Positions 4,869-44,983 of a stretch of 63,328 nt of DNA are shown here, piece by piece. The translations under genes were made by a program, and so were the position numbers. The stretch's first letter is position 1; every line of letters starts with the position of its first letter. Under the pieces are notes generated by a model that saw nothing but the letters and a program-made list of their open reading frames with translations, searched no databases and had not been told where the DNA came from. This DNA comes from Pseudomonadota bacterium (GTDB taxonomy: Bacteria > Pseudomonadota > Gammaproteobacteria > UBA9214), in assembly GCA_039714155.1 (NCBI GenBank), contig JBDLJX010000003.1:1-63328 (forward strand), read 5' to 3'.

Positions 4869-4958
4869 CATTCAATCCGGATTAACGAGCAATGGCGGAT
4901 TGTGTTTCGCTGGCAAGCCGGCAATGCCTTCGAGGCCGAAGTGACAGACTATCATTGA
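4869..4958 (+). pseudogene. higB: C-terminal remnant of a HigB (RelE-like) toxin
   Basis: Translates HSIRINEQWRIVFRWQAGNAFEAEVTDYH*, the typical HigB C-terminus, 11 nt upstream of higA; sequence further upstream no longer resembles HigB. Confidence 0.8.
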
Positions 4959-4969
4959 GGTGTGGAACC

Positions 4970-5236
4970 ATGAAACAACCGACTAATCCCTTTCATCCCG
5001 GCGAGATTTTGCTGGAGGAGTTTTTGCAGCCGGCGGACATTACCCAGACGGCATTTGCCGGGCAACTGGGGTGGACACGTGCGCGCCTCAATGAACTCAT
5101 CAAGGGCAAACGCGGGATTACGGCGGAGTCGGCACTGGATCTGGCGGAGGTGCTGGGGACGTCGGCAAAGTTGTGGATGAATTTACAGGCGACGTGGGAT
5201 CTGGACCAGGCGATGAAGCGGCGGGTGATGGCGTAG
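4970..5236 (+). CDS. higA: HigA family antitoxin (HTH)
   Basis: HPGEILLEEFL.P...TQ..FA..LG......NE.IKGKR.IT...AL.LA..LGTSA..W.NLQ. Confidence 0.92.
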   Translation: MKQPTNPFHPGEILLEEFLQPADITQTAFAGQLGWTRARLNELIKGKRGITAESALDLAEVLGTSAKLWMNLQATWDLDQAMKRRVMA

Positions 5237-5286
5237 AACGATTGTCGGATTACACTGCGCTTCCTCCTGGCTACGGCACTACGTAA

Positions 5287-5318
5287 TCCCGGATTGCGTT
5301 TCACTCCATCCGGGCTAC
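5287..5318 (-). repeat. REP family D copy (GTAGCCCGGATGGAGTGAAACGCAATCCGGGA); others at 21808-21887 (inverted pair) and 49570-49598
   Basis: Near-identical 32 bp palindromes starting with GTAG at three loci. Confidence 0.8.
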
Positions 5319-5372
5319 GGTACTTCCTGGTTATCGCGCCTGCAAGGTGCTCCTGCATGTTCGCGGTCAGGT

Positions 5373-5557
5373 CTGCGCAATGTGCCGAGGCACGCCTGGA
5401 AGGTATGAGCAAGCTTGCGGAGGCCACCGGCCTGAATCGTGAGAGTCTGTACCGGATGTTATCCGGGAAGGGTGACCCGGAGTTGAAAAGCCTTGATCGG
5501 CTGTTGCATGCACTCGGTTTGAAGATTACCGTCGATGTTGACGAGCATGCGGCGTAA
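5373..5557 (+). pseudogene. Frameshifted C-terminal half of an HI1420-type addiction-module antidote (HTH)
   Basis: ctg cgc aat gt|gcc gag gca = LRNV/AEARLEGMSKLAEATGLNRESLYRMLSGKGDPELKSL; one base missing at ~5383, N-terminal half absent. Confidence 0.7.
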
Positions 5558-5780: not shown

Positions 5781-5814
5781 GTTCAGCCTGTATTCAGCGA
5801 ACATTGCCTATCCT
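5781..5814 (+). promoter_or_regulatory. PhoP-type direct-repeat box plus -10
   Basis: GTTCAG-cctgt-ATTCAG, 11 nt, TATCCT; matches the Pseudomonas PhoP-box consensus GTTCAG-N5-RTTCAG as recalled; upstream of the phoP-like operon. Confidence 0.7.
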
Positions 5815-5886
5815 GACTGTGAATCATGGAAAACAGGGCCTTGCTGCCCTGCCCTGGCACACAACCCAAGCAACAGGAGACAGACA

Positions 5887-6414
5887 ATGAAACGCATAAT
5901 GACTGTAGTGACAATCGGGATCCCGGCGCTGGCCTTTTCCGGGGCCGCCATTTCGGAACATGGATTCATTGGCAAGGCCAGGGTCATCAACGCCGAACCG
6001 CTGTATGAAACCGTTGAAGTGGCACACCCGGTCACCGAGTGCTGGACGGAACGGGTCACTCGCAACGAGCACCGGCACGGCGACTATCTTGCACCGATCG
6101 CCGGCGGCATTGTCGGCGGTGTGGTCGGCAAGAAGATCGGCAGGGGGCGTGGAAAAACCGCACTGACCATCGCCGGTACGTTGCTTGGCGCCTCACTCGG
6201 GCAGCAGTACAATTCATCGCACTCAGGGCGACGCCAGCGGGTTGAACACGTGAGACGCTGCGAAACCGTTGATCGATACGAACGAGAGGAGCAACTCACG
6301 GGCTATCGTGTAAAATACCGTTATGAGGGACAAACCTACTACACGCAGACCACCGAACACCCGGGCAAGTTCATACCGGTGCGCGTCAGGGTGTCGCCGG
6401 TTAACGGGATTTAA
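5887..6414 (+). CDS. Glycine-zipper 2TM domain protein (YcfJ-like), exported
   Basis: Signal peptide; GGIVGGVVGKKIGRGRGK..LTIAGTLLGASLG zipper; C-terminal GYRVKYRYEGQ. Confidence 0.85.
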   Translation: MKRIMTVVTIGIPALAFSGAAISEHGFIGKARVINAEPLYETVEVAHPVTECWTERVTRNEHRHGDYLAPIAGGIVGGVVGKKIGRGRGKTALTIAGTLLGASLGQQYNSSHSGRRQRVEHVRRCETVDRYEREEQLTGYRVKYRYEGQTYYTQTTEHPGKFIPVRVRVSPVNGI

Positions 6415-6435
6415 TGCAACATTACACACCAACCA

Positions 6436-6759
6436 ATGACTAACGGACGGCTGATTACCGGCTGCTTGATCCTGTTACTGGCCACTGGCCCGGTAATGGC
6501 CGCGCCGTTTCATCAGTCTCCGTTTTATTATCACCCGCTGCTGGTCGCGCAACGCGATCATGCCGGCAATGGCGGCATCAGCCTGGACGAGGCGGTCGCG
6601 CAGGCACGGCAACGGAACAAGGGCAAGGTACTGTCTGCGGAGACCATCCGTGTCGATGGTCGCAAGGTCCACCGCATCAAGATCCTGACGAAGAACGGGC
6701 GGGTCAAGCGCATCCAGATCGATGCCCGTAGCGGGAAGAAAATGAAACGCGGACATTGA
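6436..6759 (+). CDS. PepSY domain protein, exported
   Basis: Signal peptide; ISLDEAVAQARQRNKGKVLSAE......VHRIKILTKNGRVKRIQIDARSG. Confidence 0.85.
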   Translation: MTNGRLITGCLILLLATGPVMAAPFHQSPFYYHPLLVAQRDHAGNGGISLDEAVAQARQRNKGKVLSAETIRVDGRKVHRIKILTKNGRVKRIQIDARSGKKMKRGH

Positions 6760-6762
6760 GCC

Positions 6763-7446
6763 ATGCATATCCTGGTTGTCGAAGACGAAACCCGCCTGCG
6801 CGAGCAACTGAGGGACCGCCTGCGTGACAGTGGCTACGTCGTCGAGGTGGCTGCCGACGGTGAGGAAGGCCTGTACTACGGCGAGGAATATCCGCTCGAC
6901 CTGGCGATTATCGATCTCGGGCTGCCGAAGTTGTCCGGTATCGAACTGATCCGCCGCCTGCGCTCCCGGGACCGGCATTTCCCGATCCTGATCCTGACGG
7001 CCAGGGGCAACTGGCAGGACAAGGTAGATGGCCTGGAAACCGGCGCCGATGATTACCTGGTCAAGCCGTTTCGCTTCGAGGAGCTCGAGGCGCGTTTGAA
7101 TGCCCTGTTGCGCCGCGCATCCGGCTGGTCGAAACCGGTGCTGGACTGCGGACCGATTTCGCTGGATACCGGCAAACAGTCCATCACGGTCTCGGGCAAT
7201 GCCGTGGAACTGACCGCCTTTGAGTACCGGGTGCTGGAATACCTGATGCTGCACGCCGGTGAAGTCATCTCCAAGACCGAACTGACGGACAACCTCTACG
7301 AGCAGGATTTCGACCGCGACAGTAATGTACTGGAAGTGTTCATCGGACGCCTGCGTCGCAAGCTGGACCCGGATAACACCATCAGCCCCATAGAAACACT
7401 GCGTGGCCGCGGCTATCGGTTCCGGCTGGAAGCCAACGCCGGCTGA
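6763..7446 (+). CDS. phoP: OmpR-family response regulator, PhoP-like
   Basis: ILVVEDE, DLAIIDLGLP, PILILTARGNWQDKVDGL..GADDYLVKPF.FEEL.ARLNALLRR, closely resembling Pseudomonas PhoP. Confidence 0.85.
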   Translation: MHILVVEDETRLREQLRDRLRDSGYVVEVAADGEEGLYYGEEYPLDLAIIDLGLPKLSGIELIRRLRSRDRHFPILILTARGNWQDKVDGLETGADDYLVKPFRFEELEARLNALLRRASGWSKPVLDCGPISLDTGKQSITVSGNAVELTAFEYRVLEYLMLHAGEVISKTELTDNLYEQDFDRDSNVLEVFIGRLRRKLDPDNTISPIETLRGRGYRFRLEANAG

Positions 7447-8792
7447 TGCGTTCGCTGCACAGCCGACTGCTGCTGGCTGCATCCCTGGTTCTTGCCGGCT
7501 TCCTTGGTGCCACCGGCCTGGCGCTCGACAAGGCCTTTCGCGTCAGTGCCGAGGCCGCCATGCAGGACCGCCTGCAGTCTCATATCTACGCCCTGCTGGC
7601 CGCCGCGGATGAAGATGACAACGGCCGCATGACCCCGCCACAGGAGCTGCCGGAACCACGCTTCTCGAAACCGGATTCAGGTCTGTATGCGGTCATCACC
7701 AGCGGCAACGGTAAACCGCTGTGGCACTCCACCTCCCTGACCGGGCGCAACATCAACGTGACGGAACAACAAATGCCCGGCAAGCGCCACTTTAGCCGGC
7801 TAGCCCGCTCGGGCATGCAACTGTATGCCCTCGCGCTTGGCGTTGCCTGGGAAGACGATGCCGGCACGGAGGCGTTGTACACATTCACCGTGGCGGAAGA
7901 TACCACGGTGTTCCAGACGGAGATCGACAGTTTCCGTTCTACCTTGTGGCGCTGGCTCGGCGGCATGGCACTGGTGCTGCTGCTGGCGCAGGGTGTCATC
8001 CTGCGCTGGGGCCTGCGGCCACTGCGGACGGTTAGCAATGACCTGCAGCAGATCGAAAAAGGCCGCGCAGACCGTCTGGACGGACACTACCCCAGGGAAC
8101 TCACCGGCTTGACCTCCAGCCTGAATTCCCTGATCGAGCACAGCAAGGCGGTACAGATCCGTTACCGCAACAGCCTCGATGACCTCGCCCACAGCCTGAA
8201 AACACCACTGGCCATTTTGCAGTCCAGCCCCCCGGACAGCAGTCGCAACCCTGATACCAGCCACGCCCTGGTCAGGGAACAGGTGGAACGCATGGATGAA
8301 ATCATCAGCCATCAATTACAACGCGCCGCCGTCTCCGGCCGGACCACACTGGCCAAACCGGTATCGGTTGGCAAGGTCGTGGAGCGGCTGGTGCGCTCCC
8401 TCGACAAGGTGTACCGGGAAAAACAGCTGACGGTTAACCTGGAACTGGACCCGTCAGCCAGCTTCACAGGGGACGAGGCCGACCTGACGGAGGTCCTCGG
8501 CAACCTGCTGGAGAACGCCTACAAGTACTGCCACCGTGCGGTCCGGGTGTGCGTGCGGACGGGCCCACACACCGACGGTGTCGAGATCAGCATCGAAGAC
8601 GACGGCCCCGGCATTGCAGCAGATCAGGTCGACACCGTCCTGCAACGCGGCAAACGCATGGACGAGTCGATTCCCGGTCAGGGCCTCGGCCTGAGCATGG
8701 CCAGCGAAATTATTACCGTGTATGGCGGGCAACTGGCATTTGCTGTCAGCCCCCTGGGCGGCACCCTGCTGCGGGTCAGTTTCCGCGATTGA
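7446..8792 (+). CDS. phoQ: Sensor histidine kinase, PhoQ-like
   Basis: Two TM segments, HAMP, H-box DLAHSLKTPL, N-box GNLLENAYKY, G-boxes DDGPGI and GQGLGL. Confidence 0.85.
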   Translation: MRSLHSRLLLAASLVLAGFLGATGLALDKAFRVSAEAAMQDRLQSHIYALLAAADEDDNGRMTPPQELPEPRFSKPDSGLYAVITSGNGKPLWHSTSLTGRNINVTEQQMPGKRHFSRLARSGMQLYALALGVAWEDDAGTEALYTFTVAEDTTVFQTEIDSFRSTLWRWLGGMALVLLLAQGVILRWGLRPLRTVSNDLQQIEKGRADRLDGHYPRELTGLTSSLNSLIEHSKAVQIRYRNSLDDLAHSLKTPLAILQSSPPDSSRNPDTSHALVREQVERMDEIISHQLQRAAVSGRTTLAKPVSVGKVVERLVRSLDKVYREKQLTVNLELDPSASFTGDEADLTEVLGNLLENAYKYCHRAVRVCVRTGPHTDGVEISIEDDGPGIAADQVDTVLQRGKRMDESIPGQGLGLSMASEIITVYGGQLAFAVSPLGGTLLRVSFRD

Positions 8793-8828
8793 CCCGGTAG
8801 TCAGTTCTTCACAGGTCGGGTTAGCCAT

Positions 8829-8923
8829 GTGGGAGCGTCGTCGCCTACAGGGATGTAGGTGAGGGGCGTGAGCAGGACGCGGAAGCTTCCCCGGCGCGAA
8901 TCGCGGCGAGACGCCGCTCCCAC
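8829..8923. repeat. Composite family A REP pair with internal insert
   Basis: gtgggagcg...ccccggcgcga followed by tcgcggcgagacgccgctcccac; same layout, without the insert, at 44936-44983. Confidence 0.7.
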
Positions 8924-8957
8924 AGTAAGAATATTCTTTCAATAATGAGGGCAACCT

Positions 8958-9356
8958 TCACCGCATTGGTGACAGGCTGACGTTCACTGGTATCCGCTCA
9001 CCGGGGTCGTAAGACAACCGGGTGGTCTCCGTCTCACCGCCATAGCGATAGGTCACCCGGTAACCGCTAATGTGTTCGCGAGCGCGTTGTTCAGTGACGT
9101 TTCTGCAGCGGTGCTGTTGCTGCCACTGACGAACCTGATGCCGGATATCCTCACCGATGGTCGCCGCGATGTCGTTAAATTCCCGCGCCGTGGCATCCGG
9201 TTCAGTACATACCCGGCGTGTGATCGGCTCATAGCGTGTTTCCATGACAGGCTCTACGTTCAACACCGGCGCAAAGGCCTGGTATTCCACGGCGTGCGTG
9301 AAGCCGCTCATGAGCCAGACAAGCAACAGGACCTGTATCTTCATTCCGGTTCTCAT
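8958..9356 (-). CDS. Exported YcfJ-like protein lacking the glycine zipper
   Basis: Signal peptide; A.VLNVEPV.ET...C and GYRVTYRYGGE...DPGERIPV.V match the 5887 protein; zipper segment replaced. Confidence 0.75.
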   Translation of the reverse strand: MRTGMKIQVLLLVWLMSGFTHAVEYQAFAPVLNVEPVMETRYEPITRRVCTEPDATAREFNDIAATIGEDIRHQVRQWQQQHRCRNVTEQRAREHISGYRVTYRYGGETETTRLSYDPGERIPVNVSLSPMR

Positions 9357-9401
9357 TGGTCTGCTCCTGTTCAGTTTGCCGGATGCCTTGATGGTTTTGC
9401 A

Positions 9402-9471
9402 GTAGGAGCGACTTCAGTCGCGATGGGTTGTTAATAATTCAGCCAGTTATCGCGGCTGAAGCCGCTCCTAC
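9402..9471. repeat. REPIN-like inverted pair of family A REPs
   Basis: gtaggagcgacttcagtcgcga ... tcgcggctgaagccgctcctac. Confidence 0.85.
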
Positions 9472-9538
9472 GGTTGCTGTTTGTAATTATGTGAGACAGC
9501 AGTAACACTGCATACATAATCAGTTTCGTGTGCAACAT

Positions 9539-10333
9539 TTATCCAAACCCCATCTTGTCGAGCAACTGCTCTCCACTGCTGCGCTCGGCCTCGTCGGTAT
9601 ACTGCATCACTACATCAAAGCCACCTTCCGGTAGCCGAAACCAGTCCAGGCGCAAGTTACCAAACCCGGGCTGCAGCCGGTCAACAAAGGCGGCCGCACG
9701 GTAGGGACGGGAAAAATGGATGATGAACAGGCGATTCTGCCCCGCATAGCGTTGCCGTGCCGTGCCGCTGCGTGCCTTGCCGCTGCCGTTCAGGACATAC
9801 TCAAGATGCCGCAGGATATAGGCGCTGTACCAGACCGCACCGGCCGGCAAGCGCCCCCCGGACACAGGTATCCGTGAAGGTCCGTAATTATAGGCCGCCA
9901 GGGTGCGGTACCAGTTGCCATCATAGCGTTGCTGCAGTTCCTTCAGGTAGCGTGCACCGGCATCCACATTGGTACAGGGATCCAGCACCTCGGACAGGCG
10001 CTCCAGCCCCAGGTGTTTCGCCGTAGCGGGCCAGAGAATCTGCATCAGGCCGTAGGCATTGGCCTTCGAACGGGCCCGCGGTTTGAAATCACTCTCGCCC
10101 CTGGCAACGGCCAGTAACAGGGTTTCCGGCAGGTCATGGGCAGAGGCCGCGCGACTGAAGCAATGTGCATAGGGAAAGTCCAGTGCCGGCGAGGTTTGCA
10201 GGGCGTTCGTCGCATAGGTCTGCCAGCGCGCTTCCGTTGCCAGGCGATCGATCGAGGTATCCGTTTTCGCAGCTGCTGTGGTGGTCCACGACACACTTAT
10301 ACAAAGTATCAGTATCGATGGATGCCGCAGCAT
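9539..10333 (-). CDS. SLT-family lytic transglycosylase with C-terminal SPOR-like domain
   Basis: AVARGESDF (catalytic Glu), AYGLMQI, NVDAGARYL, LAAYNYG; signal peptide; short C-terminal alpha/beta domain. Confidence 0.9.
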   Translation of the reverse strand: MLRHPSILILCISVSWTTTAAAKTDTSIDRLATEARWQTYATNALQTSPALDFPYAHCFSRAASAHDLPETLLLAVARGESDFKPRARSKANAYGLMQILWPATAKHLGLERLSEVLDPCTNVDAGARYLKELQQRYDGNWYRTLAAYNYGPSRIPVSGGRLPAGAVWYSAYILRHLEYVLNGSGKARSGTARQRYAGQNRLFIIHFSRPYRAAAFVDRLQPGFGNLRLDWFRLPEGGFDVVMQYTDEAERSSGEQLLDKMGFG

Positions 10334-10335
10334 GG

Positions 10336-10875
10336 CTATTCCAGTTCGAGTCCGGTTATGGTCTGAATATGCTCGACCAGCACCTGCCGTTCCCCGTCAT
10401 CCCGGTAACTGAAAACCACCTGATAGTTTCCCGGGCTTTCATTCACCACTTCCATGGGCACATCAGTCGCCAGGGCCAGGCGTCGTGCAAAGCCGTTTGC
10501 CGCCCACTCGCTCCGGAAGGGACTCCAGACCCGATAGCGGGACCCCGCCATGTCGCCACTGCGATCATCGGTTTCCTGGGCAGCCACGGACTGATTCCAT
10601 GACTGCGGGTCCAGTGCCAGTTCGTTACCGGTAGCATCAGGCTTGCTCTCTTCAGCCGGGCTGGCAGTGTCTGTAACCGGAAGTACCGGGCTGTCGACAG
10701 CATTGTCGACCGGTACATCCTCTGCCGGTGCCGGTTCGGTAACCCTGCGGTCTGTATCCGCCTCACTGCTGACGACTTCCTTCACCAGCGTTGGCGAGTT
10801 GCCGGTACTCAGGGCCAGCAGGAATACCCCCGACATCAACAAGGCACCGACCAGAAATCCTATAGCCCGCGTCAT
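10336..10875 (-). CDS. Membrane-anchored protein with low-complexity linker and SPOR-like C-terminus
   Basis: ATGA overlap with the upstream stop; N-terminal TM; acidic Pro/Ala linker; RVWSPFRSEWAANGFARRL...YQVVF resembles the C-terminus of the neighbouring SLT. Confidence 0.7.
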   Translation of the reverse strand: MTRAIGFLVGALLMSGVFLLALSTGNSPTLVKEVVSSEADTDRRVTEPAPAEDVPVDNAVDSPVLPVTDTASPAEESKPDATGNELALDPQSWNQSVAAQETDDRSGDMAGSRYRVWSPFRSEWAANGFARRLALATDVPMEVVNESPGNYQVVFSYRDDGERQVLVEHIQTITGLELE

Positions 10876-12299
10876 GGCAACCGCCTCGCCGTCCACACGG
10901 CATGGTCGCGGTTCGCCGCGATCAGGCGGTCAAGCCTGTCCAGCCACGGGTCCCGGTCTTCAGCATCACCCTGCATACCCGCAGCATTGCTGCAGGCATC
11001 GGGCAGGTCCTGCAACAGCTGGCGAAATTGCCGTCCCGGTTCGGCGCCACTGACGGCAATGGCATAGACCGTTGGCCAGTCGGACGACTGAAAACGTGCC
11101 TCGGGAAACCGGTACGCATGCCTGCCCGGGTGTGCCTGTGCGGGGGCCGTCGTGTCACAGGTAGCGGACAGTTGACTGATACCGTCTTTGGTACCATGCG
11201 CAATCACAAACACCGCGTCGGCCTGTTCGACGTCCACTTCCAGCACCGGGCAGCCGTGCTGCCCGTCGCTGCAACTGTCACGCCAGGCACCACTGTTTGC
11301 GTGCCGCACCAGTTCCATGCGGGCAATGCTCGGCTTCATCCTGCTGCTATCCCGAGCCACGCTGCGTTTGCCGGGATGGCTGCCGGCGGGCGGGAGTCGA
11401 ATCCAGGTCGCCGTGTCCATGCCGGCAAGGTGGTCGCCGGAGCCCCCGGGATGCAGTATGACCCAGACCTGGTAAAGACCCGGCTGAATCATGTGGCTCT
11501 CGCCGCGCAGCACGAAGTTCGCCTGCCGGCCTGCATCGGTCACCTGTACCTCCCGGTAACGCGACAGGTTATTGCCGATCAACTGCAACAGGGTACGCAG
11601 CTGCGGCTGGTCAGAGGCAAGCTTGTCTACCTTGATTTTCAGGTCTTCCACATCCTGTTGCCGCAACAGGCAACTCAGGTTGTTGGCCAGGTAGGTTGCG
11701 GCCAGGTCCGGCTGGCCGGCACTGAAGGGCAAAACCCTGAGACCCCGCAGTGACTCATCGGTACGCCGCACTTGCAGGGCGCGCAACTCGTTACCGGTCA
11801 GACTCCCCGACCAGTGCTGGCTGAATCCGCTGACCCATTCACCTGCCTGCACATCCAGGGCACGCACCGATACGCGGAACTGTGCCGTTGCCGTGCGTGC
11901 AATCTCGATGCCGATAAAATAACTGGCATCACGACTTCTGCCGCACTGTACCTGGTCCAGCCGGCGGTGATGTCGGGCTTGCTGTTGCTGTGGTTGCCAG
12001 GGCACGTGTACGCCGGGCGTTTGCAGCAGGCTGTCCATGAGCCGGTCACGCATGCTGCGCGTCAGGCCGTCGATGTCCGGCTGTATATCGTCGCCATCGA
12101 GGTGCACGATAATCACCGGCTCGCCCTTGAAGCGCGGGTGCTGGCCAAGTTGTTGCGACACGTAGGGTGCAAGTTCGGTATCCACCCAGTCTTGCAGTGT
12201 TGACGGTGTGCCGTGCACGGGACGCAGCGGATTCTGACTGCAGCCGGCGGTCAGCAGCAGGAGCAGTAATGCAATCAGGGCATGGCGCCTGGTTATCAC
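10872..12299 (-). CDS. Uncharacterised 475 aa lipoprotein
   Basis: Lipobox LTAGC; N-terminal region loosely recalls FlgO/CsgG/TolB-N-like folds (unverified). Confidence 0.75.
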   Translation of the reverse strand: MITRRHALIALLLLLLTAGCSQNPLRPVHGTPSTLQDWVDTELAPYVSQQLGQHPRFKGEPVIIVHLDGDDIQPDIDGLTRSMRDRLMDSLLQTPGVHVPWQPQQQQARHHRRLDQVQCGRSRDASYFIGIEIARTATAQFRVSVRALDVQAGEWVSGFSQHWSGSLTGNELRALQVRRTDESLRGLRVLPFSAGQPDLAATYLANNLSCLLRQQDVEDLKIKVDKLASDQPQLRTLLQLIGNNLSRYREVQVTDAGRQANFVLRGESHMIQPGLYQVWVILHPGGSGDHLAGMDTATWIRLPPAGSHPGKRSVARDSSRMKPSIARMELVRHANSGAWRDSCSDGQHGCPVLEVDVEQADAVFVIAHGTKDGISQLSATCDTTAPAQAHPGRHAYRFPEARFQSSDWPTVYAIAVSGAEPGRQFRQLLQDLPDACSNAAGMQGDAEDRDPWLDRLDRLIAANRDHAVWTARRLP

Positions 12300-12302
12300 T
12301 TC

Positions 12303-13283
12303 TCACTCCTCCAGTACCACCTGGCCGTCGCTACGGATCACCAGCGCACCACCCTGCTGTCCCCGGGTGAGTGAGGCAATGGCCGCTTGTGTAGCTGCTG
12401 GCAATTGCACCCCCCAGACAACGGTGGACTGCCCGGGGCCGTCTGCCGTGTTTTTCAGGCTGTGAATGTAGTGTGCCGGCACGGTCAGCGCCGACATCTC
12501 GTGAAACCATCCTGGCAATGACTCTGGCGCAACAGCCGGCCTGCCCGCATCCATCGACAGGCGCCAGGCCTGTTGATTGGCCATGCCGTACAGGCTGACG
12601 CTACCCGCCGCGACCAGTCGATCGAGTGCGGCCGCGGAGGCAAAGCGCAAGCTAAACCCCTGCCTGGCGGGTACCGGTTTTACTGCGGGCGCTGCTGGTG
12701 CTTGTTTCTCGATCACAGACTTGTCCGGTTTTTGCTGTGACCGGCGCTTGATTGCCTCGATTTCCTTGCGGCTGTGATCCAGCTGCACCTGTGTGTCCAG
12801 CAGTCGCCCACGGAGTTCGTCCAGGTCCTGTTCTTGCTGCATCGAGGCCTGTTCGATATCGGCCAGCAGCTTGCGTCCCTGCTCAAGCTGCCGGTCCAGG
12901 GTGTCCAGCTGCGCTTCGAGGCGGTTGCGTTGCTCGCGTGCCTGTTGTGTTTGCCCGGCAAGCTGTTCAAGCTGTCGTTGCGCAACAGTCAGAACATGCT
13001 GCGTCCGCTCCTTTGCTGATTTCAGTGCCTGCAGTTCGACCTGCAGTTCCCGTACCTGTTGCTGCTGCGCCCTGATCTCCTGCCGTATCCTTGCCGCCTG
13101 CGGAGGCTGGGCGGGTTTGTCCGGCTCCTGTACCGGAATCCCCTGCACCAGTGCGAATATGGCCATCAGGCACAGACCGATGATTGACATGAAGCGCATG
13201 ACATCCGTTTGCAGGGCATCGGTATCTCTCCCTGCCGCACCGGCGGCAGCTGGATACTTTGCATGTCGGCGCCGCTGCATCAT
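12303..13283 (-). CDS. MotB/ExbD-like single-TM protein with ~120 aa coiled coil
   Basis: QTDVMRFMSIIGLCLMAIFALV: Asp at the start of a TM helix; heptad-rich segment; no OmpA-like domain seen. Confidence 0.7.
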   Translation of the reverse strand: MMQRRRHAKYPAAAGAAGRDTDALQTDVMRFMSIIGLCLMAIFALVQGIPVQEPDKPAQPPQAARIRQEIRAQQQQVRELQVELQALKSAKERTQHVLTVAQRQLEQLAGQTQQAREQRNRLEAQLDTLDRQLEQGRKLLADIEQASMQQEQDLDELRGRLLDTQVQLDHSRKEIEAIKRRSQQKPDKSVIEKQAPAAPAVKPVPARQGFSLRFASAAALDRLVAAGSVSLYGMANQQAWRLSMDAGRPAVAPESLPGWFHEMSALTVPAHYIHSLKNTADGPGQSTVVWGVQLPAATQAAIASLTRGQQGGALVIRSDGQVVLEE

Positions 13284-13945
13284 TGTTCTTCCTGTAATGT
13301 GTACGCCGTGCTTCCGCGTGTGCCAGCACCGTCGATAGACTCGCGTATATCACTGAGCAATGTTTCAACCCGGTTGGCGTGGTGTTGCTCCTGTGCCTCG
13401 TAATAGCGACTCAGCCGGGTTCCCAGCAGAGAACTCTTGATGACACGCATCAGGTAACCGCCAATGCCGCCGACGATGGTGGTTGTCAGCGCCGTCAGGA
13501 TGCCGCCCTCCACCAGCCGCTGCAGCACGGCATAGGCACCGGCTTGTGTCGCCACCCCCGGATCACCGAGGGCATACAACAGCGCACTGCGCATGCCGAT
13601 CGCGGTCCAGATCACGCCGATACCGAAGAACAGGCTGGTCCAGACATCGTTCAGATGCTCGAGCTGGCTGATCTCATCCTGTGGACGGTTGTCATCGAGC
13701 CGCTGTTGCAACGTCCGCAGGCTATGGATATACAGGCCCAGGGTGATGCCGAACGGCAGTATCGATAACCCCAGGTTGCGCCGGCTCCACTCAAACAGCA
13801 CCTGGATCCGGGGCGCCTCGAGAATGGATATCGAAATGACCTCGAGCACGCTCAGCAGGTACACCGCCACCAGGCCGGTGATGAAGCTGAGCGTCATGCC
13901 CAGCAACATACCCTTGAAAAAGCCGCGATCCCTCAGCTGTTTCAT
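13280..13945 (-). CDS. MotA/TolQ/ExbB-like proton-channel protein
   Basis: FFGIGVIWTAIGM (cf. lGllGTviGm) and GILTALTTTIVG (cf. GiatAL.tT..G) TM motifs. Confidence 0.75.
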   Translation of the reverse strand: MKQLRDRGFFKGMLLGMTLSFITGLVAVYLLSVLEVISISILEAPRIQVLFEWSRRNLGLSILPFGITLGLYIHSLRTLQQRLDDNRPQDEISQLEHLNDVWTSLFFGIGVIWTAIGMRSALLYALGDPGVATQAGAYAVLQRLVEGGILTALTTTIVGGIGGYLMRVIKSSLLGTRLSRYYEAQEQHHANRVETLLSDIRESIDGAGTRGSTAYTLQEEQ

Positions 13946-13951
13946 CGCCCA

Positions 13952-14509
13952 TTACTCAATCGGCCCACAGGCCTCGCAGGTGGCCTCCAGCACCAGTTCG
14001 GTCTCCTGATACAGGTTGCTGGCGCGGGTGTAATTAAGCCGGTCCGCACTGATCTTGAGCAGGCCCTGCTCCTTGTCGGCCAGTTCCCGGTTCATGTCAC
14101 GCATGACATCGGACTGGTGCGGGCAGGTTTGTGCACAGACACTGTAATCGCTGACCAGGGACACGTACTTGATACCAAAATAACGGTTATAGAGTTCCCG
14201 CGCCTGCCGCTTGCTCAACAGACCTGTGTCATTCGACCACAACAGGAAGTCGCTGAAGCTGGCCTTGTTCTCCTTTTTCGGGTCGCCTTCCGCGATCGTC
14301 AGCAGGCGCTGGAAGTAGGCATCGAACTCATGTTCGCAACCGGTTTCCAGATCGAAGCGGGCGGCACTGATGGCACGTTCCAGGTTCGGTCCCTCCGGCA
14401 GGCTGCAGGCAGTCGCGTGGGTGGGATTGCTGCTGCAGGCGGCCAGTGACGTGGTGATAGCCGCCACGGTAACGAGTCCGGTCAGTTTGATTTTCATTGC
14501 TGTGTTCAT
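13952..14509 (-). CDS. Uncharacterised helical Cys-containing lipoprotein
   Basis: Lipobox SLAAC; SD GGAG upstream; Cys pairs CAQTC, CEAC. Confidence 0.75.
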   Translation of the reverse strand: MNTAMKIKLTGLVTVAAITTSLAACSSNPTHATACSLPEGPNLERAISAARFDLETGCEHEFDAYFQRLLTIAEGDPKKENKASFSDFLLWSNDTGLLSKRQARELYNRYFGIKYVSLVSDYSVCAQTCPHQSDVMRDMNRELADKEQGLLKISADRLNYTRASNLYQETELVLEATCEACGPIE

Positions 14510-14533
14510 GCCTTTTCTCCAGTTCAGTTGCTG

Positions 14534-15373
14534 TCACATTTGCAGGGCACTTTCATAGCCGTGGTCGGCCGGCCCGGCGGGCGGGATGGCCATCGGCATG
14601 ACGTCCAGTTCTTCACCGAACAGGATGGCCTTGACGCCGGCCACCACTTCCTGCATCTCCGGGGTAATGGTCCCGAATGACTGGTTAAGCTGTTCCATCA
14701 GGGTTGCGCGGCTGATCTCTTCGCGGGTACGTGCGATCAGACTGGACGTCTCCTGCATATCGAGATAGATATCCGAGGCAATCACGGCCAGTGAGGAATT
14801 GTTCTTGCCACCGGAACGCGACACCAGCTTGTAATACTGGCTAAAGCGGGCACTGAGCCGCATGCCCGAGCGGCCGCGCAGTGATGGCTGACTGGCAGCG
14901 GCCGATTTACCGGACTCTGCCCCTATCAGCAGTTCCTGCAGGGTCCAGGACGTTTTCTTCTGGCCCAGTTCCTTGCGAATGCGCTTCTCGAGACTGGACG
15001 AGGTGGCATTCACCGCGGTTTCCATCTCCGGCAGCTTGTCTGCCATGATATTCAGCATCTCGAGATAACTTTTTCCGAGTTGCCTGGCAATGCGCTCGCA
15101 ACCGGGATCACCTTCGTTGCCTTCGCACTTGCTGCCCAGGTAAAGCTTTTGCTGTTCATCCAGCTGGCTGATAACGCCCTGCAGCCCGGTTTCCATCTCC
15201 GCGGCGACATTGCCGGTATGCTTGATTTCCTCCAGTACGGTGGTCGGAAACAACTTGATAGTCGGTGCAGTCGGACTTGCATAAGCGCCCACCGGCAGCA
15301 GCAGGCAGCCGGTCAGCAGCTGTTTGAAAAAATTCCGTGTGCCTTTCCAGTCACAGATCGTTGCAATCTTCAT
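14534..15373 (-). CDS. Uncharacterised secreted helical/coiled-coil protein (first gene of the operon)
   Basis: AAGGAGG SD before ATG 15373; signal peptide ending AYA; CEGNEGDPGC loop. Confidence 0.75.
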   Translation of the reverse strand: MKIATICDWKGTRNFFKQLLTGCLLLPVGAYASPTAPTIKLFPTTVLEEIKHTGNVAAEMETGLQGVISQLDEQQKLYLGSKCEGNEGDPGCERIARQLGKSYLEMLNIMADKLPEMETAVNATSSSLEKRIRKELGQKKTSWTLQELLIGAESGKSAAASQPSLRGRSGMRLSARFSQYYKLVSRSGGKNNSSLAVIASDIYLDMQETSSLIARTREEISRATLMEQLNQSFGTITPEMQEVVAGVKAILFGEELDVMPMAIPPAGPADHGYESALQM

Positions 15374-15446
15374 TGGGAGCCCCTCCTTGCAGTCATTGAT
15401 ATCATGATTTACCTTGAAGCCTTCGCGGCCTGTGTTTGTGAGGATT

Positions 15447-15480
15447 AATATAGGCAAGTGTTCCTGAACAGAACCTGAAT
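15447..15480 (-). promoter_or_regulatory. PhoP-type direct-repeat box plus -10 for the 15373 operon
   Basis: Minus strand ATTCAG-gttct-GTTCAG, 11 nt, TATATT; same geometry as 5781-5814. Confidence 0.7.
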
Positions 15481-15556: not shown

Positions 15557-15701
15557 AGGTTATCAGCATGTACAGGCTGGATCAGGCCGGCAGGCCGCGT
15601 AATCCGGCAGTAATTCCGGGCCTGAACGAGCGGATGCCTGAATTTTGCTACAATCAGGACAGGAGAATAATGAAAAGCGATGTCGGGCCGATTACATTCC
15701 A

Positions 15702-16595
15702 GTGACTAACAACTCTTCCATATCGGGGATACAAGGACTTCTGGCAATACCCCTGTCGTTGTTGCTGCTCTCGGCCACGGTATTTTCTTCCAGTGTGTTT
15801 GGACATGCCGGTATTCAGGAGGAGATCAAAGAGATCACCCGGTTGATCCGGCAAGACCCGGCGAATGCGCAATTGTATTTGCAGCGCGGCGATCTATACC
15901 GCATTCACCAGGACTGGGATCATGCGCGGGAAGATTTTCACAAGGCACTGCAAGCGGGTACCGATGATGCCAGTGCCGAGACCGGTCTGGGCCGGACTTG
16001 TTTTGACCAGGGCTTGCACCAGCAGGCGCTTGCGCATCTGAACCGTGCGCTGGCCCTGCAACCGGGCAATGTGCGTGCGCTGGTCACCCGGGCAAAGACC
16101 TGGAGGGTGCTGGGCAAACCGCTTGCCACCGCCGCGGATTACACGCGGGCCATCCGGCAATTTCAGTCACCCCGGGAACCACTGCCCGAGTATTATCTGC
16201 AACGTGCCCGTGCATATGCCGCGGCAGGCGATCCACACATCGGCCAGGCCCTGCAGGGCCTGGATGAAGGCATGCAGGTACTGGGCAATATCCAGACCCT
16301 CGCACTTTATGCCGTGGAACTCGAAACACAGCGCGGCAATGTCGAAGCGGCGCTTGAGCGTCTCGATACCATCCTGGCAGGTTCGCCGCGCAGGGAATCC
16401 CTGCTGCTGCAACGCGGCGACATCCTGCTGGCGGCAAATCGCAACGCGGAAGCACAACAGGAGTTTCTCGCGGCACAGGCGGCAATTGCTGCCCTGCCCC
16501 TGCAACGCCGTCACACCCGATCGATGCAGCAACTGGCAGCGGCACTGACTGGCCGATTGCAATCAGCAGCACAGCAGGATGATCATGCACAGTAG
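15702..16595 (+). CDS. Exported tetratricopeptide-repeat protein
   Basis: Repeated TPR helices (AQLYLQRGDLYR..QDW..A..DF..AL); signal-like N-terminus; start uncertain (15645 or GTG 15702). Confidence 0.8.
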   Translation: MTNNSSISGIQGLLAIPLSLLLLSATVFSSSVFGHAGIQEEIKEITRLIRQDPANAQLYLQRGDLYRIHQDWDHAREDFHKALQAGTDDASAETGLGRTCFDQGLHQQALAHLNRALALQPGNVRALVTRAKTWRVLGKPLATAADYTRAIRQFQSPREPLPEYYLQRARAYAAAGDPHIGQALQGLDEGMQVLGNIQTLALYAVELETQRGNVEAALERLDTILAGSPRRESLLLQRGDILLAANRNAEAQQEFLAAQAAIAALPLQRRHTRSMQQLAAALTGRLQSAAQQDDHAQ

Positions 16596-40736: not shown

Positions 40737-42284
40737 ATGCGTATCGAATTTATCATTCCCGAAGATCTGGACTACGAAGACCTGCAGTCAACGCTTCGGA
40801 AAAACACCCGGATGCTCCCGGAACCGGTACGGACAATCTACAGGACGTACTACGACAGTTTTGACTGGCGCCTGTATCAGAACGATTCCCTGCTTGAAGA
40901 CACCCGTGACGGCAATGAACACACACTGGTGTGGCAGACCCTGAAGGGCGAATACCGCTGCCCCCGGTTAAAGCTGCATGCAGCACCCCGGTTTGCCAGA
41001 GACCTGCCACATGGACCGTTTCGCAACAGCCTGGAACCGGTGCTTGAAATGCGCGAACTCATCCCGAAAGTCAGGATCCGTTCCCGGATCAATAGCCTGC
41101 GCATCCTGAACAGGGACGAAAAAACCGTGGCCTGGCTGACAGTCGAGGAAAACACCCTGCTGCGGCAGAAAGGGACACGCTCCGGAAAACTTGATAAGCG
41201 GGCTGTAGTGATTCCGGTCAGGGGCTACCCGAAACCCGGCAAGGCGCTGGCAAGACGCCTTCAGGAGCAGGGTCTGACCCCCGCGCAGGATGACCTCATG
41301 CTGGCGGCCCTGTCCACTACCGGTGCAATACCGGCCAGCTATTCTTCCAAGCTGGACCTGAAGCTGGATCCCGCCATGCGTGCAGACAGGACAACCAAGG
41401 TCATCCTGCACCGGCTCCTCGATATCATGTTACAAAACGAGGCTGGCACCCGCACGGGTACGGATACCGAATTCCTGCATGATTTCCGTGTCGCAATCCG
41501 CCGCACCCGTTCGGCCCTCACCCAGATCAAGGCGGTATTTCCGAAACGCATCGTTGACCGTTATAAAACCGAATTTGCCTGGCTCGGCGGGGTAACCAGC
41601 CCCAGCCGTGACCTGGATGTGTATTTACTGAATTTTGATGAATACCGTGACAGCCTGTCAGCCGCCATGCAGGCCGATATCGAACCACTGCGTGATTTTC
41701 TCATCAGGCACCAGAAGACTGAACACAGGACCCTGGTCAAGGCACTGGATTCGGCGCGCTACCGCCGGCTGATCAGGAACTGGCGTCTGTTTCTGGACCA
41801 GCCGGTCAACGAACGCTCGACACTGAAAAATGCAGGCCGGCCCGTCATTGAGGTTGCCTGCGAACGGATCTGGCGTGTCTACCGGTGCGCCATCCGGGAG
41901 GGTAATGCGATCAATGCAGAGTCGCCCGCGGATGCCCTGCATGAACTGCGCAAGACCTGCAAGAAACTGCGATATCTCATGGAGTTCTTCCAGAGCCTGT
42001 ATACGACCGGTAATATCAAGGAGTTAATCCGGGTACTCAAGACACTGCAGGACAACCTGGGTAATTTTCAGGATTACGAGGTACAGGTCACCACATTGAA
42101 AAAATTCAGCCACCAGATGGTTGCCGAAGGTACAGTCCCTCCTGATACGCTGCTCGCCATGGGTATGCTTATCGACGGCCTGGAACGGCGCCAGCATCAG
42201 GCGCGGGAAGAATTTGCCGGCCGGTTCGCGAATTTCTACCTGCAGGAAAATCAGGACCGGTTCCGGAAACTGTTCGCATATTAA
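40737..42284 (+). CDS. CYTH-like + CHAD domain protein (polyphosphate-binding family)
   Basis: YYDSFDWRL; E.LHDFRVA.RR.RS; LHELRK.CKKLRY..E, LQD.LG..QD. Confidence 0.9.
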   Translation: MRIEFIIPEDLDYEDLQSTLRKNTRMLPEPVRTIYRTYYDSFDWRLYQNDSLLEDTRDGNEHTLVWQTLKGEYRCPRLKLHAAPRFARDLPHGPFRNSLEPVLEMRELIPKVRIRSRINSLRILNRDEKTVAWLTVEENTLLRQKGTRSGKLDKRAVVIPVRGYPKPGKALARRLQEQGLTPAQDDLMLAALSTTGAIPASYSSKLDLKLDPAMRADRTTKVILHRLLDIMLQNEAGTRTGTDTEFLHDFRVAIRRTRSALTQIKAVFPKRIVDRYKTEFAWLGGVTSPSRDLDVYLLNFDEYRDSLSAAMQADIEPLRDFLIRHQKTEHRTLVKALDSARYRRLIRNWRLFLDQPVNERSTLKNAGRPVIEVACERIWRVYRCAIREGNAINAESPADALHELRKTCKKLRYLMEFFQSLYTTGNIKELIRVLKTLQDNLGNFQDYEVQVTTLKKFSHQMVAEGTVPPDTLLAMGMLIDGLERRQHQAREEFAGRFANFYLQENQDRFRKLFAY

Positions 42285-44935: not shown

Positions 44936-44983
44936 GTGGGAGCGCCGTCCCCGGCGCGATTCGCGGCTGGAAGCCGCTCCTGC
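44936..44983. repeat. Head-to-head family A REP pair
   Basis: gtgggagcgccgtccccggcgcga-t-tcgcggctggaagccgctcctgc. Confidence 0.8.

What the first reader, a model, noticed from the sequence alone, without database searches (positions are those of the whole stretch)
5781..15480. The two convergent operons share the same PhoP-type promoter geometry, suggesting a self-contained ~10 kb regulon
SEEN: upstream of the glycine-zipper/PepSY/RR/HK operon is GTTCAG-cctgt-ATTCAG-cgaacattgcc-TATCCT; upstream of the motor operon (minus strand) is ATTCAG-gttct-GTTCAG-gaacacttgcc-TATATT. Both have the 11 bp-period direct repeat, an 11 nt spacer that is itself similar (gaaca..ttgcc), then a -10. KNOWN: Pseudomonas PhoP binds GTTCAG-N5-RTTCAG; OmpR-family regulators usually autoregulate. 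INFERENCE: the local PhoP/PhoQ-like pair switches on both arms, so the motor/SLT operon is an inducible envelope-stress or cation-limitation response.
Basis: partly seen in the sequence, partly recalled or inferred. Interest (0 to 1): 0.78.

Follow-up and report, generated by a model that had tools for sequence, protein, structure and literature searches.

The report
Two PhoP-type promoters, one envelope operon
Two facing gene clusters in an uncultured marine gammaproteobacterium carry the same textbook PhoP-type activator site; it is conserved across dozens of related genomes and links a PhoP/PhoQ-like sensor pair to a widespread, uncharacterised eight-gene cell-envelope operon.

Summary
RTTCAG-N5-RTTCAG occurs exactly twice in the 63 kb window (0.01 expected). 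Each copy sits 11 nt upstream of a TAnnnT -10 hexamer and 73-74 nt upstream of the first gene of an arm.

The box equals the published Pseudomonas aeruginosa PhoP consensus. Its geometry equals Salmonella PhoP 'architecture I': a direct box one helical turn upstream of -10, with no -35.

Comparative genomics supports function.
- The box precedes the envelope operon in 52 of 71 assessable genomes, all gammaproteobacterial.
- It precedes the regulator operon wherever that upstream region is present.
- The -10 A2/T6 sits at fixed spacing in 39/39 and 14/14 non-redundant promoters, while the flanks are unconserved.
- It is absent near 53 unrelated OmpR-family regulators.

The regulator and kinase are PhoP/PhoQ-like in their cytoplasmic parts but not in the sensor domain.

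'Self-contained regulon' is not supported. Seventeen box-bearing operons have no adjacent two-component system, and one genome has two extra box promoters nearby.

'Motor' is only suggestive. There is weak TolQ/ExbB similarity at the two channel threonines, and the partner protein has an invariant transmembrane Asp. Desulfobacterales drive the same operon from an ECF-sigma-like promoter instead.

This is a known regulatory kind with a new, uncharacterised target.

The parts
5781..5797 (+). PhoP-type box GTTCAGcctgtATTCAG of the regulator arm
   Evidence: Conserved upstream of the orthologous glycine-zipper gene in 15 genome loci, 4 further loci and 13 metagenome loci.
5809..5814 (+). -10 hexamer TATCCT, 11 nt after the box; predicted transcription start near 5821
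   Evidence: A at position 2 and T at position 6 occur at this fixed spacing in 14/14 non-redundant orthologous promoters. No -35 hexamer.
5887..6414 (+). Glycine-zipper protein, YcfJ/UmoD-like, with a signal peptide (175 aa)
   Evidence: Pfam PF05433, 29.6 bits against a cutoff of 24.2. NCBIfam PRK11280, 78.7 bits, below its cutoff of 99.
6436..6759 (+). PepSY-domain periplasmic protein (107 aa)
   Evidence: Pfam PF03413, E = 1.4e-8.
6763..7446 (+). OmpR-family response regulator, PhoP-like (227 aa)
   Evidence: Receiver plus Trans_reg_C domains. The best NCBIfam model is PhoP at 224 bits, below the equivalog cutoff of 336. JGI names the orthologues PhoP.
7446..8792 (+). Sensor histidine kinase (448 aa), PhoQ-like from the HAMP domain to the catalytic domain, with an unrelated periplasmic domain
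   Evidence: NCBIfam PhoQ, 220.8 bits over residues 165-447 only. Best PDB match is the PhoQ catalytic domain, E = 1.5e-28. Orthologues hit PF26769 HAMP_PhoQ.
15464..15480 (-). PhoP-type box ATTCAGgttctGTTCAG of the envelope-operon arm
   Evidence: An exact box lies upstream of the orthologous first gene in 52 of 71 assessable genomes, all gammaproteobacterial.
15447..15452 (-). -10 hexamer TATATT, 11 nt after the box; predicted transcription start near 15440
   Evidence: A2/T6 occur at fixed spacing in 39/39 non-redundant promoters.
14534..15373 (-). First gene of the envelope operon: secreted or lipobox protein (279 aa), no known family
   Evidence: No Pfam, NCBIfam or PADLOC hit. Syntenic in 74 loci.
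13952..14509 (-). Cysteine-rich lipoprotein (185 aa), no known family
   Evidence: LAAC lipobox in the sequence. No family hit.
13280..13945 (-). Polytopic inner-membrane protein (221 aa); candidate TolQ/ExbB/MotA-like channel subunit
   Evidence: A compact family of 231 clusters among 1.84 billion proteins. AF2 model with pLDDT 91.8. hhalign against a TolQ/ExbB profile gives E = 0.008 over the TM2-TM3 core. Foldseek's top hits are TolQ and ExbB but are not significant.
12303..13283 (-). Single-pass membrane protein (326 aa): invariant Asp27 at the transmembrane entry, a coiled coil, and a conserved C-terminal domain
   Evidence: Alignment of 29 orthologues; LQTDVMRF is invariant. Its start overlaps the stop of the previous gene.
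10872..12299 (-). Large lipoprotein (475 aa), no known family
   Evidence: TAGC lipobox. No family hit.
10336..10896 (-). Single-pass membrane protein with an acidic, proline-rich linker (186 aa)
   Evidence: No family hit. Missing from most Desulfobacterales loci.
9539..10333 (-). SLT-family lytic transglycosylase with a signal peptide (264 aa)
   Evidence: Pfam PF01464, E = 2.2e-29.
8958..9356 (-). Secreted protein (132 aa) sharing the C-terminal domain of the YcfJ/UmoD family, without the glycine zipper
   Evidence: NCBIfam PRK11280, E = 4.3e-10, and UmoD, E = 5.7e-8, both over residues 79-125. A 182-nt gap holding a REP-like palindrome separates it from the SLT gene.

Best explanation
Both arms are driven by PhoP-type class II promoters that depend on an activator. 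The proposed mechanism has four steps.

1. The kinase (7446-8792) phosphorylates the regulator (6763-7446).
2. The phosphorylated regulator binds as a head-to-tail dimer to the two RTTCAG half-sites, which are spaced 11 bp apart.
3. The bound dimer occupies the place of the missing -35 element, one helical turn upstream of the -10 hexamer, and recruits RNA polymerase.
4. This switches on the regulator's own operon (glycine-zipper protein, PepSY protein, regulator, kinase: positive autoregulation) and the facing eight-gene envelope operon.

What is shown: the sites, their geometry, their deep conservation and their specific association with this regulator's orthologues.

What is inferred: binding, activation rather than repression, and the inducing signal.

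The envelope operon most likely builds a complex that spans the envelope. It encodes three lipoproteins, a lytic transglycosylase and a membrane pair that may work like TolQ-TolR or ExbB-ExbD.
For: - The exact box occurs only twice in the window, against 0.01 expected.
- It is identical to the P. aeruginosa PhoP consensus and ChIP-seq half-site (PMC3156716; PMC7916210).
- The box-to--10 spacing of 11 nt corresponds to Salmonella 'architecture I'. There a direct box lies 12 nt (11 nt in yrbL) upstream of -10, the promoters are class II, and the genes are the ancestral phoP, mgtA and slyB (PMC3335776).
- Neither promoter has a -35 hexamer.
- 52 of 71 assessable genomes have the box upstream of the operon. 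The -10 A2/T6 sits at fixed spacing in 39/39 and 14/14 promoters. Flanks carry 0.18-0.3 bits per position against about 1.9 in the half-sites.
- Specificity control from the metagenome scan. Of the 27 regulator relatives at 55% identity or more, 17 carry the box upstream of their operon. Most of the other 10 loci lack that upstream region; at least one (L111, 55% identity) includes about 2 kb of it and has no box. Of 53 loci with other OmpR-family regulators (40-47% identity), none has a box nearby.
- The regulator's best model is PhoP and the kinase's best model is PhoQ, by wide margins.
- A glycine-zipper protein as a PhoP target parallels slyB (PMC2650801; PMC7916210).
Against: - No binding, transcription-start or expression data exist for these uncultured organisms.
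- The regulator and kinase both score below NCBIfam's PhoP and PhoQ equivalog cutoffs.
- The kinase's periplasmic domain shows no PhoQ-sensor match, so the signal may differ.
- In 17 loci the operon keeps the box with no adjacent two-component system. So the local position of the regulator is not required, and an unlinked PhoP could serve the sites.
- The rest of this genome is unseen.
Confidence: 0.75

Rival explanations
1. The boxes are real PhoP-type sites, but a different, unlinked PhoP-family regulator binds them. The local two-component system is only one of its targets, or has another specificity.
For: Seventeen box-bearing operons have no two-component system within 10 kb. Two loci keep a box-bearing glycine-zipper arm without a regulator or kinase. 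The local regulator scores below the PhoP equivalog cutoff.
Against: The box tracks this regulator's orthologues down to 60% identity, even where the kinase and upstream genes have changed (L106-L109). It is absent near 53 other OmpR-family regulators. No second close PhoP-like regulator lies in the window; the only other hit is 36% identical.
Confidence: 0.13
2. The two promoters look alike because one was copied from the other (shared ancestry or a mobile promoter cassette), not because they are co-regulated.
For: In the window the two promoters share TTGCCTAT as well as the box.
Against: Outside the box and -10 the two regions do not align. Across genomes only the functional positions persist, while the N5 spacer, the 11-nt spacer and the flanks diverge separately in each arm. 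REP-like repeats lie nearby but do not include the box.
Confidence: 0.04
3. The sites mediate repression, or are non-functional relics.
For: P. aeruginosa PhoP represses retS and rsmZ through PhoP boxes (PMC3156716).
Against: Those repressor boxes lie between the -10 hexamer and the start codon. Here the box replaces the -35 at the activating position. It has been kept in register with the -10 hexamer in more than 50 diverged promoters.
Confidence: 0.04

Closest known systems
Pseudomonas aeruginosa PhoP-PhoQ regulon (oprH-phoP-phoQ, arn, pagP, slyB)
   Same: The half-site and spacing are identical (GTTCAGNNNNNRTTCAG; ChIP-seq motif G/ATTCAG). The two-component genes follow an envelope-protein gene in one autoregulated operon. 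A glycine-zipper protein is among the targets.
   Different: The leading genes are a YcfJ/UmoD-like glycine-zipper protein and a PepSY protein, not OprH. The kinase's sensor domain is unrelated by sequence. The main linked target is an uncharacterised eight-gene operon that I could not find in the P. aeruginosa PhoP papers I read.
Salmonella PhoP 'architecture I' promoters (phoP, mgtA, slyB, pmrD, yrbL)
   Same: A single direct-orientation box lies one helical turn (11-12 nt) upstream of -10 and overlaps a poor -35, giving class II activation. This architecture is typical of ancestral regulon members and of autoregulation.
   Different: The half-site is RTTCAG rather than (T/G)GTTTA. Nothing has been shown experimentally here.
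Tol-Pal, Ton and Mot ion-driven envelope systems (TolQ-TolR-TolA, ExbB-ExbD-TonB, MotA-MotB)
   Same: - A polytopic membrane protein is followed by an overlapping gene for a single-pass protein with an invariant Asp at the membrane entry.
- Two invariant Thr residues align with TolQ T145 and T178.
- The operon also encodes lipoproteins and a peptidoglycan-active enzyme.
   Different: There is no Pfam MotA_ExbB match and no PDB sequence match. hhalign gives E = 0.008-0.04 and Foldseek gives E about 0.5, neither significant. The partner carries a long coiled coil and a novel C-terminal domain instead of an OmpA-like or TolR-like domain.
SlyB and YcfJ/UmoD glycine-zipper envelope proteins
   Same: The first gene of the regulator arm has the PF05433 glycine-zipper domain. 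SlyB is a conserved direct PhoP target in enterobacteria and Pseudomonas.
   Different: The protein here has no lipobox and is closer to YcfJ/UmoD than to SlyB. Its role, whether feedback on the kinase or membrane stabilisation, is unknown.

Membership tests
PhoP-activated class II promoter (PhoP box, 'architecture I') | Two direct hexamer repeats at 11-bp period that match a PhoP consensus | tested here: met
   There are two exact matches to RTTCAG-N5-RTTCAG. The P. aeruginosa consensus is GTTCAGNNNNNRTTCAG and the ChIP-seq motif is G/ATTCAG.
PhoP-activated class II promoter (PhoP box, 'architecture I') | Box in direct orientation 11-12 nt upstream of the -10 hexamer, overlapping a weak or absent -35 | tested here: met
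   The spacer is 11 nt at both promoters. No -35 hexamer was found. The spacing holds in 39/39 and 14/14 orthologous promoters. The published architecture is in PMC3335776.
PhoP-activated class II promoter (PhoP box, 'architecture I') | Phospho-PhoP binds the site and transcription depends on PhoP | not testable with these tools
   This needs gel shift, footprinting, transcription-start mapping and mutant expression data.
PhoP/PhoQ two-component system | OmpR-family regulator that meets the PhoP equivalog model | tested here: not met
   PhoP (NF008078) is the best model at 224.3 bits, but the cutoff is 336. JGI's annotation nevertheless names the orthologues PhoP.
PhoP/PhoQ two-component system | Kinase with PhoQ-type HAMP, DHp and catalytic domains | tested here: met
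   The NCBIfam PhoQ model aligns residues 165-447 at 220.8 bits, against 109 for the next model. Best PDB match is the PhoQ catalytic domain, E = 1.5e-28. Orthologues hit PF26769 HAMP_PhoQ.
PhoP/PhoQ two-component system | PhoQ periplasmic sensor domain (Mg2+ and antimicrobial-peptide sensing) | tested here: not met
   No Pfam hit covers residues 28-165. The PhoQ model does not cover them, and the whole-protein score is below the cutoff of 497.
PhoP/PhoQ two-component system | Positive autoregulation through a PhoP box upstream of the operon | tested here: inconclusive
   The box lies upstream of the operon's first gene wherever the upstream region is present, for regulators down to 60% identity. 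This fits autoregulation but expression was not measured.
MotA/TolQ/ExbB ion-channel family (PF01618) | Significant match to the family profile or to solved members | tested here: not met
   There is no Pfam hit even at E = 10. Three profiles of the family found no relevant PDB sequence. A search of 1.84 billion proteins returned only 231 clusters.
MotA/TolQ/ExbB ion-channel family (PF01618) | Conserved TM2-TM3 core with the two channel threonines | tested here: inconclusive
   hhalign aligns residues 105-163 with TolQ 136-185, placing T114 on T145 and T156 on T178. E is 0.042 against TolQ alone and 0.008 against a small TolQ/ExbB profile. HH probability is 5% or less.
MotA/TolQ/ExbB ion-channel family (PF01618) | Fold similarity to solved stator or channel subunits | tested here: inconclusive
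   The AF2 model has pLDDT 91.8. Foldseek's PDB top hits are TolQ 8vlw, ExbB 5sv1 and ZorAB 8vvi. Their E-values are 0.45-1.5; TM-scores are 0.2-0.3 for TolQ and ExbB, while the short ZorAB chain reaches 0.64 when normalised to its own 99 residues.
MotA/TolQ/ExbB ion-channel family (PF01618) | Adjacent single-pass partner with a conserved Asp at the membrane entry (as in MotB, TolR and ExbD) | tested here: met
   D27 within LQTDVMRF is invariant in 29 orthologues spanning two phyla. The genes overlap. hhalign of the whole partner against TolR found nothing.
SLT lytic transglycosylase (PF01464) | Match to the SLT catalytic domain | tested here: met
   E = 2.2e-29, 101.8 bits against a cutoff of 21.3.
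Known anti-phage defence systems (for example Zorya) | Match to PADLOC models | tested here: not met
   Only coiled-coil noise matched the 326-aa protein, and nothing matched the other seven.

The most novel reading that the evidence does not exclude
The eight-gene operon encodes a previously undescribed ion-driven machine that spans the cell envelope.
- A minimal TolQ/ExbB-like channel (221 aa) pairs with a stator-type partner (326 aa).
- The partner carries the invariant transmembrane Asp and reaches across the periplasm on a coiled coil.
- Three lipoproteins and a dedicated lytic transglycosylase help assemble the complex.

Different phyla have wired this machine to different envelope-stress regulators: PhoP/PhoQ in sediment and symbiont Gammaproteobacteria, and an ECF-type sigma factor in Desulfobacterales.
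Probability: 0.4. Interest if true: 0.75.

Novelty: new member of a known kind. Interest (0 to 1): 0.55.

Why it matters
The regulatory logic is textbook PhoP, so the promoters themselves teach nothing new. Their value is as a label. They mark a widespread operon as a conserved output of an envelope-sensing two-component system. That operon has about 2,200 proteins at 90% clustering, spans two phyla, and six of its eight genes belong to no known family. It occurs in uncultured sulfur-cycling sediment bacteria and in tubeworm symbionts.

The label gives a concrete, testable condition for expressing and studying the operon. It also gives a candidate new relative of the Tol, Ton and Mot motors. 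The switch from a PhoP box to an ECF-like promoter between phyla is a clean example of regulatory rewiring of one module.

Tried and rejected
- Rfam scan of the whole window: nothing.
- RNAalifold on 21 leaders of the envelope-operon arm: no consensus structure.
- PADLOC: no defence-system match.
- Three profiles of the 221-aa family against PDB sequences: no relevant hit.
- First AF2 run with a shallow alignment: pLDDT 54.7, unusable. It was repeated with a 68-sequence alignment.
- hhalign of the 326-aa family against TolR: nothing.
- hhalign of the 221-aa family against single ExbB and MotA sequences: only short, insignificant matches.
- Search for TolQ/ExbB/MotA homologues in the loci to build a deeper comparison profile: only one found.
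- Search for an ECF sigma gene beside the Desulfobacterales operon in L059: none among the neighbours scanned.
- Weight-matrix scan for further strong sites within 10 kb of the operon in about 85 genomes: only the two known promoter classes scored 18 bits or more.
- McPhee et al. 2006, the original PhoP-box paper: not in the library. The consensus is cited from two papers that quote it.

Full report
**1. The observation**

- Plus strand: GTTCAG-cctgt-ATTCAG at 5781-5797, then 11 nt, then TATCCT at 5809-5814. The ATG of the first gene is at 5887.
- Minus strand: ATTCAG-gttct-GTTCAG at 15480-15464, then 11 nt, then TATATT at 15452-15447. The ATG is at 15373.

The leaders are therefore 73-74 nt long in both arms, and each start codon follows a good ribosome-binding site.

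RTTCAG-N5-RTTCAG has only these two exact matches in 63,328 bp on both strands. Shuffles give 0.01 expected, and 0 of 100 shuffles reached two. Relaxing to two mismatches gives background numbers. Outside the box, the spacer end and the -10 hexamer, the two regions do not align. A consensus scan finds no sigma-70 -35/-10 pair at either place. This is what an activator-dependent promoter looks like.

**2. The genes**

The plus arm is a tight four-gene operon:
- a glycine-zipper protein of the YcfJ/UmoD kind;
- a PepSY protein;
- an OmpR-family response regulator;
- a histidine kinase.

The regulator's best NCBIfam model is PhoP at 224 bits, against 211 for the next model (RppA) and 185 for the next E. 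coli-type model (PmrA). This is below the equivalog cutoff of 336.

The kinase's best model is PhoQ at 221 bits, against 109 for the next, but only over residues 165-447. Its catalytic domain is closest to PhoQ among solved structures (E = 1.5e-28, against 6.5e-17 for the next, CpxA). Orthologous kinases carry Pfam's HAMP_PhoQ domain. JGI names the regulator's orthologues PhoP. The periplasmic domain (about residues 28-165) matches nothing.

The minus arm has seven tightly packed genes, followed by an eighth after a 182-nt gap:
- a 279-aa exported protein;
- a 185-aa lipoprotein;
- a 221-aa polytopic membrane protein;
- a 326-aa single-pass coiled-coil protein;
- a 475-aa lipoprotein;
- a 186-aa single-pass protein;
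- an SLT lytic transglycosylase (E = 2.2e-29);

Six of the eight match no Pfam, NCBIfam or PADLOC family, even at permissive thresholds.

**3. Conservation of the sites**

The 221-aa protein has 2,186 relatives at 90% clustering, all unnamed. I fetched 80 genomic loci around it. They come from uncultured Gammaproteobacteria (Sedimenticolaceae, Thiogranum, Ectothiorhodospiraceae, Chromatiales, tubeworm endosymbionts, Motiliproteus) and from Desulfobacterales. The operon is syntenic throughout.

Seventy-one loci include the region upstream of the first gene:
- 52 carry an exact RTTCAG-N5-RTTCAG there, and all 52 are gammaproteobacterial;
- 17 Desulfobacterales loci carry a different conserved promoter;
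- 2 carry neither.

I aligned the promoters on the box. The flanks are unconserved (0.18-0.3 bits per position) while the half-sites carry about 1.9 bits; the half-site value is expected, because these promoters were selected by the exact pattern. The -10 hexamer was not part of the search pattern. It sits exactly 11 nt downstream, with A at position 2 and T at position 6, in 39/39 non-redundant operon promoters and 14/14 regulator-arm promoters. The window's A and T frequencies are each about 0.21-0.22, so this is far beyond chance.

A weight matrix built without the window scores the window's two sites at 53 and 43 bits. The next best site scores 10.

**4. Link between the box and this regulator**

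Three regulator orthologues gave four further loci (L082-L085). All carry the box upstream of the glycine-zipper gene. Three show the facing envelope operon, and in the fourth the contig ends just after the kinase.

A metagenome scan with a regulator profile gave a graded series.
- At 80% identity or more, the box lies upstream of the glycine-zipper gene in all 13 loci that include that region.
- At 60-63% identity (L106-L109), the operon is PepSY-regulator-kinase. There is no glycine-zipper gene and the kinase is only 34-41% identical. The box is still there, with a TAAAAT or TAGAAT -10 hexamer 10 nt away.
- At 40-47% identity (53 loci with other OmpR-family regulators), no box is nearby; one stray match lies 6 kb away.

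So the box follows this orthologous group specifically. That is the expected signature of autoregulation by the encoded protein.

**5. Comparison with known PhoP biology**

The P. aeruginosa PhoP consensus is GTTCAGNNNNNRTTCAG (PMC3156716). ChIP-seq gave G/ATTCAG, and an earlier form is CGTTCAGNNNNNRTTCAG (PMC7916210). The boxes here are also preceded by conserved C residues.

In Salmonella, 'architecture I' promoters carry one direct box 12 nt (11 nt in yrbL) upstream of the -10 hexamer. They act as class II promoters and serve the ancestral genes phoP, mgtA, slyB and pmrD (PMC3335776). RTTCAG is offset by one base from (T/G)GTTTA when GTTCA is laid over GTTTA. On that register, which is my inference, the 11-nt spacer here equals the Salmonella 12 nt.

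Autoregulation from a promoter upstream of a preceding gene is known for Yersinia (y1795-phoPQ) and P. aeruginosa (oprH-phoPQ). The glycine-zipper lipoprotein SlyB is a conserved PhoP target and a feedback element (PMC2650801). It is a direct PhoP target in P. aeruginosa and is also under the ECF sigma factor AlgU. The regulatory element is therefore a new member of a well-known kind.

**6.

'Self-contained' does not hold in general. Thirty box-bearing loci have at least 5 kb of sequence beyond the transglycosylase gene:
- 11 have the regulator or kinase adjacent;
- 2 keep a box-bearing glycine-zipper arm without a regulator or kinase (L015, L029);
- 17 have no two-component system within reach. 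These include the tubeworm symbionts, the Motiliproteus loci and a Sedimenticolaceae genome.

In L030, two further promoters lie next to the module. Each has an exact box, an 11-nt spacer and TAAAAT or TAGCCT. One precedes a DUF6134 protein and the other a 131-aa ORF.

Adjacency is thus a feature of one sub-clade, and the regulon can have other members. Only 63 kb of this genome is available, so its full regulon is unknown. The inducing signal is also open, because the sensor domain is not PhoQ-like by sequence.

**7. Is it a 'motor'?**

The 221-aa family is compact: 231 clusters at 50% identity among 1.84 billion proteins. It does not merge with MotA/TolQ/ExbB in HMMER searches, and it finds no PDB sequence. 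Four weak, independent hints point the same way.
- hhalign places residues 105-163 on TolQ 136-185, the TM2-TM3 core. E is 0.042 against TolQ alone and 0.008 against a three-sequence TolQ/ExbB profile.
- In that alignment the invariant T114 and the nearly invariant T156 fall on TolQ T145 and T178. From my own knowledge of the Tol literature, these are the channel threonines.
- A confident AF2 model (pLDDT 91.8) has TolQ, ExbB and ZorAB chains among its top Foldseek hits, but at E = 0.45-1.5 and with TM-scores of 0.2-0.3 for TolQ and ExbB, which is not significant.
- The next gene overlaps this one and encodes a single-pass protein whose LQTDVMRF motif, with Asp27 at the membrane entry, is invariant across 29 orthologues from two phyla. 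MotB, TolR and ExbD are built the same way.

I rate 'works like a TolQR/ExbBD-type pair' at about 0.4-0.5. Membership of the family is not shown.

**8. A second regulatory solution**

In 17 of 19 Desulfobacterales loci the operon is preceded by aaaTTGA(C/T)C-N14-GTCCGTCTA(A/T) and has no PhoP box. From its shape (a -35 of the GAAC/GACC type and a -10 of the CGTC type, about 17 nt apart) I read this as an ECF-sigma promoter. That reading is an inference, and no sigma gene was found among the neighbours scanned in L059. If it is right, two phyla couple the same module to two different envelope-stress regulators.

**9. Verdict**

The regulatory kind is known. What is new is its target, an unstudied and widespread envelope operon.

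Noticed in passing
L054-L080 (Desulfobacterales loci), 57-214 nt upstream of the first operon gene; for example L059 around 8540-8580: Seventeen of 19 loci share aaaTTGA(C/T)C-N14-GTCCGTCTA(A/T) in place of the PhoP box. It looks like an ECF-sigma promoter, so the same operon appears rewired to another envelope-stress regulator.
   Followed up: partly
window 5628/5670, 8829/8915, 9402/9463, 26375/26435, 62133/62171 (plus a single copy at 44936): GTRGGAGCG occurs 11 times against 1.1 expected, mostly as inverted pairs in intergenic gaps. This is a REP-like palindromic element. Copies lie just upstream of the regulator-arm promoter, between the two converging operons, and between the transglycosylase gene and the 132-aa gene.
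   Followed up: partly
L030 13267 (-) and 13374 (+): Two further exact boxes with 11-nt spacers and TAAAAT or TAGCCT hexamers lie back to back. They sit upstream of a DUF6134 secreted protein (12469-13200) and a 131-aa ORF, so this genome has extra regulon members.
   Followed up: partly
window 42247-42283 (+): This is the third-best weight-matrix site, at only 10.4 bits (AATCAG-N5-GTTCCG, 11 nt, CATATT). It lies at the end of a CHAD-domain gene (40737-42284) and upstream of a 265-aa ORF with no family. It is probably chance.
   Followed up: partly
window 15371-15440 (-) and orthologous leaders: The leader of the envelope operon keeps a short element, ATCGAGGT. By eye there is a small hairpin just after the predicted start whose stem sequence changes between clades. 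RNAalifold found no consensus structure.
   Followed up: partly
L045-L053, L061, L072, L073 (tubeworm symbionts and relatives), 3-7 nt upstream of the box; L102 18575-18548 (-): Distant loci have an inverted CTGAAY half-site just upstream of the direct repeat. L102 has three tandem direct half-sites at 11-bp period.
   Followed up: no
window 49824-50357 (+): A second OmpR-family regulator-like reading frame, 36% identical to the PhoP-like one over residues 46-220.
   Followed up: no
window 4892-5557 (+) and 15645-18927 (+): The module's neighbours are not conserved in other genomes. On one side are two small HTH genes, one of them like an addiction-module antidote. On the other are a TPR protein and a 782-aa purple-acid-phosphatase-like protein with bacterial TSP3 repeats.
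   Followed up: no
L059 14484-18557 (+): In this Desulfobacterales genome the operon is followed by two caspase-like (Peptidase_C14) proteins with DUF4384 domains and by a TPR-OmpA protein.
   Followed up: no
L004 (CP070821.1) 8575-11355: This MAG chromosome has the box and only the first four operon genes. The 326-aa homologue is cut short and the rest of the operon is missing, which points to a rearrangement or an assembly break.
   Followed up: no
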